Of a DNA stretch of 63,605 nucleotides, positions 452 through 40,768 are shown piece after piece (the stretch's first letter is position 1; each line of letters begins with the position of its first letter). Both the position numbers and the translations under genes were made by a program. Where the stretch lies: sequence record SRR31156797_1603; one strand, given 5' to 3'. Under the pieces are notes generated by a model. It made no database searches. It had not been told where the DNA came from and saw only the letters and a program-made list of their open reading frames with translations.

Positions 452-473
452 AAGTGCAAAGAAACTTTCACGT

Positions 474-714
474 TTGAGAAGGAATAGTAGAAGTACGGTG
501 GGACTTTTAGAGAGTGCATGGTTGGTGGAAATGCACAGCACACCTTTCGAACTCGTCTTCGAGTGATATCTGACTGAACCTGATTTGGCTAGGCAGATAC
601 GGCGATGGCCGTTAAAACATCGAGGTCTGCTTTTTTGAGGAGCAGATAAACTTAGGTGGTACCACGTTGATAACGTCCTATAAAAATCATAGCGATTTTT
701 ATAGGACTTTTTTT
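474..714 (+). promoter_or_regulatory. T-box riboswitch (Leu specifier CUC)
   Basis: AGTA, AGAGA and GGTGGAA stem I motifs; GAA-CTC specifier at 549-554; T-box AGGTGGTACCACG at 654-666; terminator GTCCTATAAAAATC/GATTTTTATAGGAC plus T-run at 675-714; lies upstream of leuS. Confidence 0.95.
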
Positions 715-34676: not shown

Positions 34677-36677
34677 TTAGCGTTCCTCGATGCGTAATTC
34701 TGTCAGAGAGCTTTCTTTCATCTGACCGATGACCAAAGGAACGGTCTCATGAACCACATCGCTGTATTCTAAGCCGAACCAGCGTTCAGGTGAAATAGTA
34801 TGGCGTTTGATAAAAAGCTTCGTCTGCATGACTTGCTTCTGCCATTTGCTTAATGCAGTTGCATTCGACAGCTCTTCTTCGATCATCACGAATTGGAAAT
34901 CACCCACATTGCGTCCAGGCGTTAAGGAATAGCGTTGCGGCTGCAGCGGCAAGCGACCATCTTTCATCAATTCTTGAATGATTTGGCGAATGTAGAGATT
35001 GACTTCTTGCGGCACCCGAAAGCCGAGATAAAGCTTTAGTTTAACGATAAAATCGGTATCTGCCATCGAAACTTCATATTTTTTCGTATAAGGTTCATCG
35101 GTGACTTCCACATTGACGAACCAATACACTTTGGCACGCTTCGGCCGTTTGTCTAAAATGGAATAGATGAACTGCTGACCGATCTGATCGTCTTGCAGTT
35201 TAGGAACCATGAAGACGACGTTCGTCTGAGATAATGGCAAAGAATCATCTTCCCGCAACTGTTTCAATTGAGGGATGTAGGTAGAAAGTGCAACTTCTTC
35301 GGCAGCATTTTCTTGAATACGATTGCCCCATTCCCAAATCAGCATCACACCGATGATCACGCTGGCTAATAAGATGGCAACGTAACCGCCATGGAAAAAT
35401 TTCGTCGCACTAGAGATAAAGAAAATGCCTTCGATTGCTGCAAAAAAGAGCGTGATGAACGGTGCCAAGAAACGGGTCTTCTTGTTTTGGTGCAAGTAGA
35501 AATACAGCAAAATAGTGGTCATCAACATCGTTACCGTAATGGCCAATCCATAAGCGGCTTCCATCCGAGTAGAGGTCTGGAAGAATAAGACCACGCCGGA
35601 ACAGGCGATCCACAGCAAGGTGTTCAAGGCAGGAATATACATTTGCCCGATAGACGCCCCCGGATAGATGATTTGCATCCGCGGCAATAGTTTCAACTTG
35701 ATGGCTTCAGAAACCAAGGTAAAGGAGCCAGACAGCAGAGCTTGCGAAGCAATGATGGCAGCGAGTGTGGCGAAGCTGACACCAAAGACTGTCCACCCTT
35801 GCGGCAACGCTTGGAAAAATGGGTTCAAGTTTTCGATTTCTTGATAAGTCGGGTTTTGATAGACTTGCAGCAGCCACGCCGCTTGACCAAAGTAATTCAG
35901 CATCAAGCAGATTTTGATATAGGGCCAGCTGGCATAAATGTTTTTTTTGCCCACATGACCTAAGTCCGAGTAGAGGGCTTCCGCACCAGTAGTCGCCAAA
36001 AAGATATTGCCGAGAATAAAGAGACCAGCGCTGTTATCGGGACTAAAGAGCAGATTGATCGCATACCGGGGATCAAGGGCCCGAATCACCGAAAGGTCAC
36101 CGGCAAAGTTCATCACACCGACGATGCCCAAGAAGGTGAACCAGCCTAGCATGATCGGTCCGAAGGCTTTGCCGACAAACTCAGTCCCAAAGCGCTGCAG
36201 GGCAAAGAGGACCAATAAGATTGCTAAGGTGATGCCGACGATGATCGATTGGTCATTGCCGAAGCGATCAAAAAAGGCTGGAATCCCCCGTAATCCTTCG
36301 ATGGCAGTGGTTACGGTCACGGCTGGCGTCAATACCCCATCTGCTAGCAGGGCTGCGCCCCCGATGATCGCTGGAATAATCAAGTAGCGGCTGTTTTTAC
36401 GAACTAAGGTATAAAGGGAAAAAATCCCGCCTTCTCCATGGTTATCCGCGTTTAATGCGATCAAGACGTACTTGATCGTCGTTAACAAGGTCAGCGTCCA
36501 AAAGACGAGTGAGACGCTACCTAAGATAAAATCGGGCGTTAAGGTGCGGAGTCCGCCATTATCCTCCACCAGGGCTTTCATTACGTAAAGTGGGCTCGTA
36601 CCGATATCACCGTAGACCACCCCCATGGCGACTAAAAGTCCGCCGGCGGTCACTTTTTTCATTTTACTTGAACTCAT
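34677..36677 (-). CDS. kup: KUP/HAK/KT potassium transporter
   Basis: GVVYGDIGTSPLY, GEGG, ADGVLTPAVTV and GAEALYSDLGH motifs; GGAGG RBS before ATG 36677. Confidence 0.96.
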   Translation of the reverse strand: MSSSKMKKVTAGGLLVAMGVVYGDIGTSPLYVMKALVEDNGGLRTLTPDFILGSVSLVFWTLTLLTTIKYVLIALNADNHGEGGIFSLYTLVRKNSRYLIIPAIIGGAALLADGVLTPAVTVTTAIEGLRGIPAFFDRFGNDQSIIVGITLAILLVLFALQRFGTEFVGKAFGPIMLGWFTFLGIVGVMNFAGDLSVIRALDPRYAINLLFSPDNSAGLFILGNIFLATTGAEALYSDLGHVGKKNIYASWPYIKICLMLNYFGQAAWLLQVYQNPTYQEIENLNPFFQALPQGWTVFGVSFATLAAIIASQALLSGSFTLVSEAIKLKLLPRMQIIYPGASIGQMYIPALNTLLWIACSGVVLFFQTSTRMEAAYGLAITVTMLMTTILLYFYLHQNKKTRFLAPFITLFFAAIEGIFFISSATKFFHGGYVAILLASVIIGVMLIWEWGNRIQENAAEEVALSTYIPQLKQLREDDSLPLSQTNVVFMVPKLQDDQIGQQFIYSILDKRPKRAKVYWFVNVEVTDEPYTKKYEVSMADTDFIVKLKLYLGFRVPQEVNLYIRQIIQELMKDGRLPLQPQRYSLTPGRNVGDFQFVMIEEELSNATALSKWQKQVMQTKLFIKRHTISPERWFGLEYSDVVHETVPLVIGQMKESSLTELRIEER

Positions 36678-36705
36678 TGACTGTTTTCCCTCCATTTTAA
36701 ACTGC

Positions 36706-36825
36706 AAAAAGACCTAAGCGGCCCCTTGCCACTTAGGTCTTGCAAGAAACATCTTAAACCAGCGGATTCCCGCTTGCTGTTGATCTAAGATCATGGAACG
36801 ATCCATGTGCTACTCCCCTAAAGTG
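36706..36825 (-). promoter_or_regulatory. yybP-ykoY family riboswitch with a terminator expression platform
   Basis: Minus strand reads UUAGGGGAGUAGC...CAUGGA/UCCAUG...AUCUUAGAUCAACAGCAAGCGG GAAU CCGCUGGUUUAAGAU...GCAAGACCUAA, then terminator AGACCUAAGUGGC/GCCGCUUAGGUCU-UUUU. Promoter TTGACA-17-GATAAT at 36859-36831. Confidence 0.88.
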
Positions 36826-36947
36826 TTCTTATTATCTTTGTTTTTGCAGCTCCTGTCAATTGATTTGATAAAAATGGCAATAAACATTTTTCTTTTACTG
36901 CTTTTCAGCGTAAGATAACAATAGGTATGGAATAAGGAGGCAGGAAA

Positions 36948-37703
36948 ATGATTGAGATCAAGAATCTGACGAAACAGTATGGACCCAAAAAAGCATTGTC
37001 TGATCTTTCCCTGACAATCCGTCAAGGGGAGATCTTTGGCTTTCTGGGACACAACGGGGCAGGGAAGTCGACAACGATCAAAAGCTTAGTTAGTATTTTG
37101 CAACCGACGAGTGGGGAAATCTTTTTTGACGGTCAATCCCTCGTGGAACATCGGGAAGCGATAAAAAAACAAATTGCCTATGTGCCGGACACGCCAGATT
37201 TATTTTTACAGCTAACAGCAGGGGAGTATTGGGACTTGATTGCCGCAGCGTATGAGGTGCCAGCAGCGGAAAAGGCCGAGCGTTTGCAAAAATTAGGGCG
37301 CTTGTTTGATATGCTGTCTCATGAAGAAGAGACCATCGCTAGCTTTTCCCATGGAATGCGGCAAAAAACGCTGCTGATTGGGGCATTGATCCCCGATCCG
37401 GACATTTGGATCTTGGACGAACCATTGCAAGGCTTAGATCCCCAAGCAGCGTATGATTTAAAAGAAATGATGAAACAGCATGCTGCCAAGGGCAAGACCG
37501 TGATTTTTTCTACCCACGTCTTAGACACCGCCCAGCAGTTGTGTGATCAATTAGCGATTTTGAAAAAAGGTGAGCTGCTGTACAATGGCTCAGTGGCAGA
37601 TTTGCTGGCACAGCATCCGTCGCTTTCTTTGGAAACAATCTATCTGCAAATGACTGGGAGAAGTCAAGAAGAAGCGATTCTTGCAGAAGCGGAGGAAGCG
37701 TAG
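36948..37703 (+). CDS. ABC transporter ATP-binding protein
   Basis: GHNGAGKST, FSHGMRQK and ILDEP motifs. Confidence 0.93.
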   Translation: MIEIKNLTKQYGPKKALSDLSLTIRQGEIFGFLGHNGAGKSTTIKSLVSILQPTSGEIFFDGQSLVEHREAIKKQIAYVPDTPDLFLQLTAGEYWDLIAAAYEVPAAEKAERLQKLGRLFDMLSHEEETIASFSHGMRQKTLLIGALIPDPDIWILDEPLQGLDPQAAYDLKEMMKQHAAKGKTVIFSTHVLDTAQQLCDQLAILKKGELLYNGSVADLLAQHPSLSLETIYLQMTGRSQEEAILAEAEEA

Positions 37704-39284
37704 ATGCGAAAACAACAATTTCTGACGCTGACCTCCGTTAATTTGCGGTATGCCAATCCCCAACTGACAGACAAAGCCCGCAAAAAAGGCAAGGCTGGTT
37801 CGACCTTGACCAGTTATTTGTTGTTTCAATATGCGCTTTCTGGAGTGGTGTTTCTGCTAGTCTATGGTTTGACGATGATCACATTGGATTTTAGTCAGAT
37901 GCCGGGCTTTTTTACCTATTATGTCGCTTTGTTCGGGATTTTAGGCTTTTCCCAAGGGATTTCGTCCATTTACAATGTCTTCTTCGAAAGTCAAGATCTG
38001 CCAGCGTATTTGCCGCTGCCCTTTCGACAGAGTGAAATTTTTCTGGCAAAGATCGTGGTGGTATTTCTTACCGTTGCGCCGTTTATTTTTCCTTTGTTGG
38101 TCTTATTTCTCCTGACAGGGATTCGGGCAAACGTCTTTTTCTTGCTGACGATCTTATGGGCGTTCTTGCTGTTCGGCTTGTTTTTAGTCCTGATCTTCAG
38201 CATTTGCAGCTTGATCGTCTTCAGCCTGACGCGCACCAAGTTTTTCTTGAAGCATAAAAAATTGGTCACTAGTTTATTGCTAGGCGTGACGATGCTGGTT
38301 GTTGTGATCGGGGTCTTAATGATGAATCAGGTGAATACCTACGAGGCAGACGTGGTAGACCGAGGAGCGATCAGCTTTTTATTGCCCTTTTATTATGTGA
38401 TGGTGGCGCCGTTTCAAACAACTGGTTTGCTTAGCTTGCTAGGGATCATCGCCACAGCAGGCGTGTTGCTTTTTGCCCTCTATCGGTTGATCTTGCCGAA
38501 GTTTTATGAGCAAGTGGCAGCCGCGGCGCCTAACCAAGGGAGTGTTCGTCGGAAACATAAACCCAATCAAGGCTTGGGCCAGCTGTTGTTTAATTACAAT
38601 TCGCAGTTGATCCGTGATCCGAATTTGATCATGCAAGTCTTTTCTTCCTCGTTACTGATGCCCATCATTTTTTTAGTGTCCTTTGTGTTTACTGGGGTGG
38701 TTCAGTTAAGTGAATTGGATGAGCGATTTATCGGTGTTGTTTTCGTGGCGGGGATCGCCTTGGCGGCACTGATGGTCAACCCGACTTCTTTTATCAGTAA
38801 TTTGATTTCATTGGATCAGGAGAATTTCTTGTTTGTCCGCTCCTTGCCGCTATCGATGAAGCGCTACTTGCGGGAAAAATTCCGCTTTGGCGTCGTTTTG
38901 CAGCTGAGCTTAACGGCAGTCATCGTGCTGGCAGCAGTGCTTTTATTCAAAATGCCGCTGATTTTGGCTGTCTCTTTTCTAGTCGGGGCACTTTGGAGCA
39001 GTTTTCTTTTGTGCTTGAAATATTTTGCTCGGGATTATCGATTGCTGCTTTTGGATTGGACCAATATCAGTCAATTGTTTACGAGAGGGGCGGGGAGTCT
39101 TGGGTTAGCCATTGGAACAGTCGCAACGCTATTTCTTTCCGTCATTGTTATCATCCTTTATGGCTTTGCTGCGACTTCGATTGATTTTTGGTTATTGAAT
39201 GGTCCGGTTTTCTTTGTGATCCTCTTGACCAGCGTCCTTTGGATAGCCCATTATGACCATAGATTTTGGCGTCGTTTTTCCTAA
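37704..39284 (+). CDS. ABC-2-type transporter permease
   Basis: About 12 hydrophobic segments with internally repeated halves (YLPLPF and RSLPL); abuts the ATPase gene. Confidence 0.85.
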   Translation: MRKQQFLTLTSVNLRYANPQLTDKARKKGKAGSTLTSYLLFQYALSGVVFLLVYGLTMITLDFSQMPGFFTYYVALFGILGFSQGISSIYNVFFESQDLPAYLPLPFRQSEIFLAKIVVVFLTVAPFIFPLLVLFLLTGIRANVFFLLTILWAFLLFGLFLVLIFSICSLIVFSLTRTKFFLKHKKLVTSLLLGVTMLVVVIGVLMMNQVNTYEADVVDRGAISFLLPFYYVMVAPFQTTGLLSLLGIIATAGVLLFALYRLILPKFYEQVAAAAPNQGSVRRKHKPNQGLGQLLFNYNSQLIRDPNLIMQVFSSSLLMPIIFLVSFVFTGVVQLSELDERFIGVVFVAGIALAALMVNPTSFISNLISLDQENFLFVRSLPLSMKRYLREKFRFGVVLQLSLTAVIVLAAVLLFKMPLILAVSFLVGALWSSFLLCLKYFARDYRLLLLDWTNISQLFTRGAGSLGLAIGTVATLFLSVIVIILYGFAATSIDFWLLNGPVFFVILLTSVLWIAHYDHRFWRRFS

Positions 39285-40565: not shown

Positions 40566-40768
40566 GAATGGGTAATATCCGTTGATGCCGTTCTTTTTCC
40601 CATAGTATTGATCCCGCAAATTCTAGCAGGTGGGTTCCACGGTCTAAGCTTCGAACTACCAAAGGAAAAGGCATGTTACCAGCATTGACACAAGACGGAT
40701 CCCAAGATATCAATAAAAATGTTCGGTCAACACACAAAAGGGACAACTCGTACATCACAGAATTCCCA
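40566..40768 (-). ncRNA. ssrS: 6S RNA
   Basis: About 200 nt with paired ends and Firmicute 6S motifs (GUUGACCGAACAUU, GGGAUCC, GGAACCCACCUGC, GCGGGAUCAAUAC, AACGGCA); TTGCAC-17-TACTAT promoter; rarA-6S-usp synteny. Confidence 0.93.

What the first reader, a model, noticed from the sequence alone, without database searches (positions are those of the whole stretch)
36678..36859. Mn2+-class (yybP-ykoY) riboswitch controlling a KUP potassium importer
Seen in sequence: a TTGACA-17-GATAAT promoter, then a leader with the yybP-ykoY hallmarks. These are GGGGAGUAGC pairing with GCAAGACC (P1/L1), a short P2, and a P3 with the UCAACA...CUGG internal loop that keeps the CA whose A contacts Mn2+ in solved structures. 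The 3' strand of P1 (AGACCUAA) is also the 5' arm of an intrinsic terminator, so ligand binding should switch kup ON. Established: this family senses Mn2+ (the E. coli alx leader also responds to pH) and usually drives MntP, TerC or P-type ATPase exporters, while Firmicute K+ importers are normally tied to c-di-AMP. Inference: either Mn2+ or alkaline stress induces K+ uptake, or this Kup has a metal-related role, or the aptamer (loop CAACAGCAA, no P4) has shifted specificity. I cannot say whether this gene association is already catalogued.
Basis: partly seen in the sequence, partly recalled or inferred. Interest (0 to 1): 0.8.

Follow-up and report, generated by a model that had tools for sequence, protein, structure and literature searches.

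The report
Manganese-type riboswitch controlling potassium importer Kup
The leader of the potassium-uptake gene kup is a conserved RNA switch of the manganese-sensing (yybP-ykoY) type, which normally controls metal exporters, so these bacteria seem to link potassium uptake to a metal or alkalinity signal.

Summary
On the minus strand a TTGACA-17-GATAAT promoter (36859-36831) drives a ~150-nt leader ahead of kup (ATG 36677). The leader has the yybP-ykoY hallmarks: GGGGAGUAGC, UCAACA...UGG and GCAAGACC. It has P1, P1.2, P2 and P3 but no P4. The 3' strand of P1 is also the 5' arm of a strong hairpin followed by five U.

Rfam's RF00080 model scores it only 13.2 bits (cut-off 45). That model also missed 10 of 17 control loci carrying all three hallmark motifs.

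My own covariance model finds one high-scoring copy in 71 of 134 genomes of this bacterial family, every one upstream of kup. It also finds kup-linked copies in two further families of the order. Across 43 distinct leaders, 95.5% of cells pair, 18 of 27 pairs show compensatory changes, and the metal-site nucleotides are invariant.

A sister element with the same three-stem layout precedes P-type cation ATPases, as in the published Streptococcus mgtA Mn2+ switch. It coexists with the kup switch in three genomes.

Best reading: a P4-less Mn2+-class ON switch. The ligand is untested. I found no published report of the kup link.

The parts
36854..36859 (-). -35 hexamer TTGACA
36831..36836 (-). -10 hexamer GATAAT, 17-nt spacer. 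The transcript is inferred to start near 36824, two or three bases before P1. A GATAAT-like box sits at a similar distance in many related leaders (by eye).
36817..36822 (-). P1 (switch helix) 5' strand UUUAGG
36811..36816 (-). L1 5' strand GGAGUA. GAGUA is invariant in 43 of 43 kup leaders and the first G in 42 of 43. It holds the G-G-A that Martin et al. assign to the metal site.
   Evidence: PMC6649816 (passages)
36792..36810 (-). P1.2 5' strand (GC, then A) followed by the P2 hairpin CAUGGA-UCGU-UCCAUG
36751..36791 (-). P3 leg. P3a is AUCUUAGA/UUUAAGAU. The L3 internal loop is UCAACAGCAA (36783-36774) opposite UGG (36761-36759). P3b is GCGG-GAAU-CCGC. UCAAC and UGG are invariant in 43 of 43 leaders.
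36745..36750 (-). 6-nt linker GUUUCU where canonical four-way-junction members carry P4. Its sequence varies among the kup leaders.
36732..36744 (-). P1.2 3' strand (U, GC), L1 3' strand AAGA (the A-G-A is 43, 42 and 43 of 43) and the P1 3' strand CCUAAG
36706..36741 (-). Intrinsic-terminator-like hairpin AAGACCUAAGUGGC-AAGGG-GCCGCUUAGGUCUU plus a U tract. Its 5' arm contains the P1 3' strand, so the hairpin and P1 are mutually exclusive.
   Evidence: Not called by the simple scanner.
36688..36693 (-). Shine-Dalgarno GGAGGG, 10 nt before the ATG
34677..36677 (-). kup coding sequence, 666 aa (K_trans plus K_trans_C)

Best explanation
The kup leader is a three-way-junction (P4-less) member of the yybP-ykoY, or Mn2+, riboswitch class that turns kup ON.

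Transcription starts a few bases before P1. If the two helical legs (P1/P1.2/P2 and P3) dock through loops L1 and L3 around a bound divalent cation, P1 is held closed. Its 3' strand then cannot enter the terminator hairpin, and RNA polymerase reads through into kup. Without the ion, the more stable terminator forms and transcription stops near 36706.

Shown here: the sequence features, the covarying helices, the invariant pocket, the two mutually exclusive folds, the strict linkage to kup, and the kinship with ATPase-linked and canonical members.

Inferred: the ligand is Mn2+, possibly also Ca2+ as for the Streptococcus mgtA switch. Also inferred is the physiological meaning. Cytoplasmic alkalinisation or Mn2+ excess would raise the signal and so induce K+/H+ symport by Kup.
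For: Structure.
- On 27 distinct leaders, 96.8% of cells pair against 26-44% when partners are slid, and 8 of 27 pairs show changes on both sides.
- On 43 distinct leaders from three bacterial families, 95.5% pair against 23-46%, 18 of 27 pairs are compensatory, and 0 of 500 shuffles reach any observed measure (this alignment was fitted to the model).

Metal pocket.
- L1 5': GAGUA 43/43, the preceding G 42/43.
- L3: UCAAC 43/43, and UGG opposite 43/43.
- L1 3': A-G-A 43, 42 and 43 of 43.
- These are the positions given for the metal sites in PMC6649816 (passages read): L1 G-G-A, L3 C-A with the A N7 contacting Mn2+, and L1 3' AGA.

Switch.
- The aptamer alone folds into P1/P1.2/P2/P3 at -27.9 kcal/mol.
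- With the tail added, the best fold has the terminator and no P1, at -50.5 kcal/mol.
- Of 35 distinct platforms, 30 put the P1 3' strand in a hairpin followed by a U-rich stretch, 4 pair it with the Shine-Dalgarno sequence, and 1 is unclear. Both designs give ON logic.

Linkage to kup.
- Model R1 hits 73 of 134 genomes of the family, 71 of them at 57 bits or more, one copy each.
- 70 of those 71 lie 48-926 nt (median 183) upstream of kup on the same strand. The 71st is at a contig edge next to the Kup N-terminus.
- 8 more kup-linked copies occur in two other families of the order.

Kinship.
- R1 scores P-type-ATPase-linked elements at 32.5-47.3 bits in 10 loci. Pfam confirms the ATPase for 6 ORFs.
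- R1 also hits canonical motif-bearing loci from other phyla at 22-40 bits, 35 of 79.
- Genomes G089, G219 and G261 carry both a kup-type and an ATPase-type copy.

Physiology, from papers.
- Alkalinisation raises cytoplasmic Mn2+ and induces the alx riboswitch gene in E. coli (PMC10197570, abstract).
- An E. faecalis kup ktrA double mutant grows poorly at alkaline pH (PMC9945522, passages).
- kup expression rises at pH 9 with NaCl (PMC12296724, abstract and passages).
Against: - Rfam RF00080 does not reach its cut-off. There was no hit at gathering, none at E<=10 on 451 nt, and 13.2 bits against 45 on 146 nt. Its 3' half does not align.
- No genome of the family has an RF00080 match over the cut-off (0 of 134).
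- The simple terminator scan called nothing here.
- The invariant UNAAA linker of the Streptococcus mgtA type is not kept.
- Kup imports K+ and has no known link to Mn2+, so the physiological reason is inference only.
- The main text of an E. faecalis V583 Mn2+-excess transcriptome names only mntE as an induced transporter (PMC3203883, section 13 read). Its Table S1 could not be opened. I also cannot tell whether that species carries this leader.
- 46 of the 116 kup-bearing genomes in the family show no adjacent R1 match (one of these, G043, is split at a contig edge). 9 sampled kup upstream regions were empty even with filters off (best 11.6 bits). The switch is therefore dispensable for kup.
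- No binding or expression data exist for this RNA.
Confidence: 0.7

Rival explanations
1. Same fold and same ON logic, but the signal that matters in the cell is cytoplasmic alkalinity. It would act on the RNA directly, as proposed for E. coli alx, with Mn2+ only a cofactor. Kup would then be induced to bring in H+ together with K+.
For: The alx riboswitch couples Mn2+ sensing to alkaline pH (PMC13594968 abstract in the search listing; PMC12153347 passages). In E. faecalis, Kup contributes to growth at alkaline pH and its expression rises at pH 9 with NaCl (PMC9945522 and PMC12296724, passages).
Against: According to PMC12153347, alx-like switches are confined to Enterobacterales, lack P2 rather than P4, and have a different L3. 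The kup leader has the canonical L3 core. Nothing in the sequence can show pH sensitivity.
Confidence: 0.15
2. The physiological ligand is Ca2+ or another divalent cation rather than Mn2+.
For: The three-way-junction mgtA aptamer of S. pneumoniae binds Ca2+ with higher affinity than Mn2+ (PMC6649816, abstract). The kup leader shares that architecture.
Against: In the same paper Mn2+ activates read-through much more strongly than Ca2+. The kup pocket is closer to the canonical Mn2+ consensus than the ATPase-linked pocket is: GUAGC rather than GUAAC, and UCAAC.
Confidence: 0.08
3. The aptamer has shifted to a non-divalent ligand relevant to K+ biology, such as Na+, K+ or a nucleotide signal like c-di-AMP.
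For: The regulated gene is a K+ importer, not a metal exporter. Lactic acid bacteria are reported to lack the c-di-AMP riboswitch (PMC10243994, passage), which leaves a regulatory gap.
Against: No pocket position differs from canonical Mn2+ members. Three genomes hold both the kup-type and the ATPase-type copy with the same pocket. No Rfam family for c-di-AMP, Na+ or Li+ matches. An ON switch answering to K+ would make no sense for an importer.
Confidence: 0.05
4. It is not a ligand sensor. It would be a conserved attenuator read by a protein or small RNA, or a decaying relic of an Mn2+ switch.
For: The Rfam score is below threshold, and no experiment exists.
Against: A relic would not keep an invariant pocket and compensatory pairs across three families. 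It would also not evolve two different expression platforms with the same logic.
Confidence: 0.02

Closest known systems
S. pneumoniae mgtA riboswitch (yybP-ykoY family, three-way junction; PMC6649816)
   Same: P1, P2 and P3 with no P4. L1 has G-G-A, L3 has C-A and the L1 3' strand has AGA. A terminator overlaps the P1 3' strand, giving ON logic. Elements of this layout ahead of P-type ATPases occur in the same order and are hit by my kup-leader model at 32.5-47.3 bits.
   Different: The regulated gene is the K+ importer Kup, not a Mn2+/Ca2+ efflux ATPase. The linker that replaces P4 is variable rather than the invariant UNAAA. The P1.2 pair next to L1 is G-C (GUAGC...GCA) rather than A-U (GUAAC...GGUGA).
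Canonical four-way-junction yybP-ykoY Mn2+ riboswitch (Rfam RF00080; the L. lactis, E. coli mntP and X. oryzae types)
   Same: The same three hallmark motifs, GGGGAGUAGC, UCAACA...UGG and GCNAGACC, were found in 121 loci from many phyla. The helices P1, P1.2, P2 and P3 are the same. R1 aligns full-length to 35 of 79 of these loci.
   Different: There is no P4. The score is below Rfam's cut-off (13.2 against 45 bits).
E. coli alx riboswitch (pH-responsive element, yybP-ykoY family)
   Same: It is also a three-way-junction member, and it ties a membrane-transport gene to alkaline stress through Mn2+ (PMC10197570 abstract; PMC12153347 passages).
   Different: alx lacks P2 rather than P4, acts on translation, has a divergent L3, and controls a TerC-type Mn2+ exporter.
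ydaO/kimA c-di-AMP riboswitch of Bacillus
   Same: It works alike only in outcome: an RNA leader with a terminator that controls K+ importer genes.
   Different: The fold and ligand are unrelated and it is an OFF switch (the OFF logic is recalled, not taken from a call). It has no match here, and lactic acid bacteria are reported to lack it (PMC10243994).

Membership tests
yybP-ykoY (Mn2+) riboswitch | Conserved L1 5' strand GGGGAGUAG carrying the metal-site G-G-A | tested here: met
   Present at 36818-36810. GAGUA is invariant in 43 of 43 kup leaders and the preceding G in 42 of 43. Positions are as defined in PMC6649816.
yybP-ykoY (Mn2+) riboswitch | L3 internal loop with an invariant C-A, whose A N7 contacts Mn2+ in solved structures, opposite a conserved UGG | tested here: met
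   UCAAC 43/43 and UGG 43/43. The same core is seen in canonical loci.
yybP-ykoY (Mn2+) riboswitch | L1 3' strand with an invariant A-G-A (GCNAGACC) | tested here: met
   A 43/43, G 42/43, A 43/43. The preceding base varies: A 25, G 14, C 4.
yybP-ykoY (Mn2+) riboswitch | Two helical legs (P1.1/P1.2 with or without P2, and P3.1/P3.2 with or without P4) joined at a three- or four-way junction | tested here: met
   P1, P1.2, P2, P3a and P3b are supported by covariation and by the single-sequence fold. P4 is absent, which PMC6649816 and PMC12153347 accept as family variation.
yybP-ykoY (Mn2+) riboswitch | The 3' strand of the P1.1 switch helix pairs alternatively with the expression platform | tested here: met
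   30 of 35 distinct platforms are terminator-like and 4 sequester the Shine-Dalgarno sequence.
yybP-ykoY (Mn2+) riboswitch | Score at or above Rfam RF00080's gathering cut-off of 45 bits. This is an operational criterion, not a structural one. | tested here: not met
   13.2 bits, with no hit. Control: of 17 loci with all three hallmark motifs, only 7 reach 45 bits, 2 are below it and 8 give no hit at E<=0.001. The ATPase-linked elements score 22-38 bits.
yybP-ykoY (Mn2+) riboswitch | Cross-helix A-minor contact of an L1 adenine with a G-C pair of P3.1 | not testable with these tools
   A G-C pair (32 of 43) lies one pair away from L3. Tertiary contacts cannot be computed here.
yybP-ykoY (Mn2+) riboswitch | Mn2+ binding and Mn2+-dependent gene activation | not testable with these tools
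   No experiment exists, and the RNA runs gave no usable signal.
yybP-ykoY (Mn2+) riboswitch | Usual association with Mn2+ or cation exporters (MntP, TerC, P-type ATPase). This is typical rather than defining. | tested here: not met
   The downstream gene is Kup. All 71 high-scoring copies in the family are kup-linked.
mgtA-type three-way-junction subtype (Streptococcus) | [quoted passage not shown] | tested here: met
   A 6-nt linker at 36750-36745.
mgtA-type three-way-junction subtype (Streptococcus) | The linker is the invariant UNAAA | tested here: not met
   The window has GUUUCU, and the linker columns vary among the 43 leaders.
c-di-AMP (ydaO) riboswitch and other ion riboswitch families in Rfam | A match to the family's covariance model | tested here: not met
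   No such family appears among the matches.

The most novel reading that the evidence does not exclude
In these lactic-acid-type bacteria the Mn2+ riboswitch fold has been recruited away from metal detoxification. It would serve as a sensor of cytoplasmic ion or pH state that switches on K+/H+ symport by Kup. In the window's genus it is the only detectable yybP-ykoY-type element (5 of 5 genomes show one match each; no RF00080 match in the nearest genome). Free Mn2+ would then act as an internal second signal for alkaline or ionic stress. That would fill the role c-di-AMP riboswitches play for K+ importers in Bacillus.
Probability: 0.35. Interest if true: 0.75.

Novelty: new member of a known kind. 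Interest (0 to 1): 0.6.

Why it matters
Mn2+ riboswitches are known as guards against manganese poisoning that switch on exporters. Here a conserved subclass switches on a potassium importer, and it occurs in at least three bacterial families. That extends the regulon of this riboswitch class.

It also points to a cross-talk between Mn2+ (or alkalinity) and K+/H+ balance that can be tested directly. The organisms concerned tolerate high pH and salt as part of their lifestyle, and they are reported to lack the c-di-AMP riboswitch.

There is a practical point as well. The current Rfam model misses this element and many other three-way-junction or non-proteobacterial members, so automatic genome annotation probably leaves these leaders unmarked.

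Tried and rejected
- Rfam at gathering threshold over the whole window found only a T-box and a 6S RNA.
- The permissive scan of 451 nt gave only chance-level hits. The best was nqrA-II at 20.2 bits against a cut-off of 55, E 0.52, driven by the terminator stem.
- The window's own assembly is not held. The nearest genome, G001, was used instead.
It gave no named relatives of the window's organism, and 0 of 121 loci had kup. I therefore could not verify the family name 'Enterococcaceae'.
- Public RNA runs gave no information on transcript ends, strand or level. The three RNA-labelled runs hold the stretch only as contigs: single contigs of 29 kb and 6 kb span it in X1 and X14, and four short pieces cover it in X13. 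The raw-read metatranscriptome had 0 reads on it.
- Ten literature searches found no paper linking yybP-ykoY or a manganese riboswitch with kup or potassium uptake. Of the papers that hold both search terms, the four I opened are false positives: author names Kupper and Kuppeveld, an unrelated Trk operon and reference-list entries. For one search I judged two further listed papers by title only, and one paper counted there was not listed.
- The two founding 2015 papers (PMC4376352, PMC4703321) are not held, so their gene-context tables are unseen.
- I considered and rejected a shifted ligand specificity, because no pocket difference exists.
- I also considered and rejected a diverged leader hiding upstream of kup in genomes without an R1 hit. 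In 9 regions the best score was 11.6 bits with filters off, and Rfam found nothing at E<=0.01.

Full report
WHAT IS THERE

The finding lies on the minus strand. The only promoter-like site in 36500-37000 is TTGACA (36859-36854), a 17-nt spacer, then GATAAT (36836-36831), matching 11 of 12 positions. About 150 nt downstream is the ATG of a 666-aa ORF (36677-34677). Pfam identifies that ORF as a KUP-family K+ transporter: K_trans 483.5 bits and K_trans_C 57.2 bits.

Between the promoter and the ATG the RNA reads as follows (coordinates checked):
- P1 5' strand UUUAGG (36822-36817)
- L1 5' strand GGAGUA (36816-36811)
- P1.2, then the P2 hairpin CAUGGA-UCGU-UCCAUG (36810-36792)
- P3, with the internal loop UCAACAGCAA opposite UGG (36791-36751)
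- a 6-nt linker GUUUCU (36750-36745)
- UGC-AAGA-CCUAAG (36744-36732)
- a hairpin AAGACCUAAGUGGC/GCCGCUUAGGUCUU ending in five U at 36706
- GGAGGG (36693-36688)

IS IT MORE THAN CHANCE?

The 126-nt leader folds at -50.5 kcal/mol, z = -5.46, and 0 of 200 shuffles fold as well.

A DNA search with the leader found the aptamer core (query positions about 39-131) at roughly 75% identity in 68 of 134 genomes of the bacterial family around the nearest held genome, in 9 of its 17 genera. All 30 loci fetched from that search have a Kup orthologue immediately downstream.

An alignment of 27 distinct leaders has 44 invariant columns. On the structure I named (P1, P1.2, P2, P3a, P3b):
- 96.8% of cells form standard pairs, against 26-44% when the 3' partners are slid by 1-3 columns.
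- 8 of 27 pairs show changes on both sides.
- One pair occurs as AU, UA, GC and CG.

RNAalifold independently predicts nearly the same helices.

RF00080 gave no match at its gathering score and none at E<=10 on 451 nt. It scored 13.2 bits (cut-off 45, E 0.047) only when 146 nt were given. That alignment fits GGGGAGUAGC, P2, P3 and UCAACA well and fails in the 3' half.

- Of 17 such loci scanned, only 7 reach 45 bits, 2 fall below it, and 8 give no hit at E<=0.001.
- Within the window's family, 0 of 134 genomes have any RF00080 match over the cut-off.

The current model is therefore insensitive outside its mainly proteobacterial core, and its silence carries little weight.

A MODEL OF THE LEADER ITSELF

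I built covariance model R1 from the 27 leaders.

Within the family:
- R1 finds a match in 73 of 134 genomes, 71 of them at 57 bits or more, one per genome.
- Kup orthologues are present in 116 of 134 genomes.
- 70 of the 71 strong hits lie 48-926 nt (median 183) upstream of kup on the same strand. The 71st is at a contig edge beside the Kup N-terminus.
- The two weak hits (41 and 34 bits) precede P-type cation ATPases.

Across the order:
- In an even sample, 20 of 151 genomes gave hits. Outside the home family these were 4 of 19 in f2, 4 of 19 in f4 and 4 of 18 in f8. Five other families gave none.
- Eight of the out-of-family loci are kup-linked (f2 and f8), and six precede P-type ATPases. 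Pfam confirmed the ATPase for three of the six. The other three I judged from near-identical N-termini.

On 43 distinct kup leaders from the three families:
- 95.5% of cells pair, against 23-46% when slid.
- 18 of 27 pairs are compensatory.
- 0 of 500 shuffles reach any observed measure. This alignment was fitted to the model, which favours the structure.

RELATION TO THE KNOWN FAMILY

Sub-threshold RF00080 hits in the family fall into two groups. Three are kup leaders (22-25 bits). At least ten are a sister element that lies ahead of P-type ATPases. Pfam on one example gives E1-E2_ATPase, Cation_ATPase_N and Cation_ATPase.

R1 scores those ten sister elements at 32.5-47.3 bits with the same three-stem layout. 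They are also matched, below cut-off, by Rfam's Streptococcus 'sRNA' family SSRC10.

Martin et al. 2019 (PMC6649816, abstract and passages read) showed the following for the S. pneumoniae mgtA riboswitch, which precedes such an ATPase:
- It is a yybP-ykoY member with a three-way junction in which P4 is replaced by a short linker.
- The metal site is made by the L1 G-G-A, the L3 C-A (whose adenine N7 contacts Mn2+) and the L1 3' A-G-A.

E. coli alx is another three-way-junction member, lacking P2 (PMC12153347, passages).

R1 also aligns full-length to 35 of 79 canonical motif-bearing loci from other phyla at 22-40 bits. Where P4 is present it falls as an insertion in the linker. The best RF00080 scorer among my controls (L063, 69.9 bits) itself has only a short linker there.

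In the 43 kup leaders the pocket positions are invariant:
- L1 5': GAGUA 43/43, the preceding G 42/43
- L3: UCAAC 43/43, UGG 43/43
- L1 3': A-G-A 43, 42 and 43 of 43

The kup type is in fact closer to the canonical consensus (GUAGC, UCAAC, GCNAGACC) than the ATPase type is (GUAAC, GGUGAGAC). I therefore see no sequence basis for a changed ligand.

HOW IT MOST LIKELY WORKS

The 95-nt aptamer on its own folds into P1/P1.2/P2/P3 at -27.9 kcal/mol. With the downstream sequence included, the minimum-energy fold keeps P2 and P3 but replaces P1 with the terminator hairpin. The default state is thus OFF, and anything that holds P1 closed gives read-through.

Of 35 distinct expression platforms:
- 30 place the P1 3' strand in a strong hairpin followed by a U-rich stretch, although the remainder of the stem differs between lineages.
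- 4 have no terminator and instead pair CCUAAGUU with AACUUAGG, which overlaps the Shine-Dalgarno sequence.
- 1 is unclear.

Two platform designs with the same logic argue strongly for a working ON switch. The steps shown are the structures, their mutual exclusion and their conservation. The ligand (Mn2+, perhaps Ca2+) and the in-cell response are inferred.

WHY KUP?

This part is inference.
- In E. coli, alkalinisation raises cytoplasmic Mn2+, and that switches on the yybP-ykoY-controlled alx gene (PMC10197570, abstract).
- In E. faecalis, a kup ktrA double mutant grows poorly at alkaline pH. The authors propose that Kup's K+/H+ symport helps acidify the cytoplasm (PMC9945522, passages).
- kup expression rises at pH 9 with NaCl (PMC12296724, abstract and passages).
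- Neither E. faecalis paper mentions a riboswitch (0 occurrences of the word in each).
- Lactic acid bacteria are reported to lack the c-di-AMP riboswitch that controls K+ importers in Bacillus (PMC10243994, passage).

An Mn2+-class switch on kup could thus tie K+/H+ uptake to alkaline or ionic stress. These papers apply only if the window's family is indeed Enterococcaceae, which the tools did not let me confirm.

Points against:
- The main text of an Mn2+-excess transcriptome of E. faecalis V583 names only mntE as an induced transporter (PMC3203883, section 13). Its Table S1 could not be opened.
- About 45 kup-bearing genomes of the family lack the switch.

IS IT KNOWN?

Ten full-text searches found no report of a yybP-ykoY or manganese riboswitch linked to kup or potassium uptake. 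The four co-mentions I opened are false positives. For one search, two further listed papers were judged by title only, and one paper counted there was not listed. A 2022 survey of riboswitches in pathogens lists no Mn2+ riboswitch for E. faecalis or E. faecium (PMC9495176, passages).

I could not see the 2015 founding papers or their supplements, RegPrecise, or older Rfam full alignments. Any of these might already list the association.

VERDICT

The element is a real, conserved three-way-junction member of the Mn2+ (yybP-ykoY) riboswitch class that acts as an ON switch on kup. The class and the architecture are known. The strict, multi-family link to a K+ importer appears to be new. In the window's genus this leader is the only detectable member of the class. 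The ligand and the physiology still need experiments.

Noticed in passing
window 464-683 (+): T-box leader, Rfam RF00230, 101.8 bits (cut-off 93).
   Followed up: no
window 40572-40766 (-): 6S RNA (SsrS), Rfam RF00013, 61.1 bits (cut-off 46.4).
   Followed up: no
L031 1509-1630 (+), L034 1500-1616 (-), L040 1500-1620 (-): Rfam's 'Streptococcus sRNA 10' family (SSRC10, RF02617) matches, below its cut-off (34-39.7 against 56 bits), the same stretch as the ATPase-linked yybP-ykoY-like element. That sRNA family may simply be the terminated leader of the mgtA-type Mn2+ riboswitch.
   Followed up: partly
L019, L027, L028, L029 (leaders printed): In one genus the kup switch has no terminator. Instead the P1 3' strand CCUAAGUU can pair with AACUUAGG, which overlaps the Shine-Dalgarno sequence. 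This is a translational version of the same ON switch.
   Followed up: partly
L025 819-1340: Between the riboswitch terminator and kup lies a tandem array of 4.3 copies of a 120-nt unit (97% matches). Other leaders of that genus also have long inserts of 250-490 nt containing similar-looking sequence.
   Followed up: partly
window 36562-36825: In contigs of three other strains laid on 35900-37200, 22 variable places are listed. None lies between 36562 and 36825, a span that holds the whole leader and the first codons of kup. With about 2.5 differences expected by chance in the leader, this is only a weak hint of constraint.
   Followed up: no
window 36948-37703 (+) and 37704-39284 (+): Two ORFs are transcribed divergently from the kup promoter region. 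By eye, the first begins like an ABC-transporter ATP-binding protein (GHNGAGKST Walker A motif). I did not test this.
   Followed up: no
Rfam RF00080 model: The release-15 model is 177 positions long. It leaves the GGGGAGUAGC strand unpaired and has no GCNAGACC consensus at its 3' end. It misses 10 of 17 loci that carry all three hallmark motifs.
   Followed up: partly
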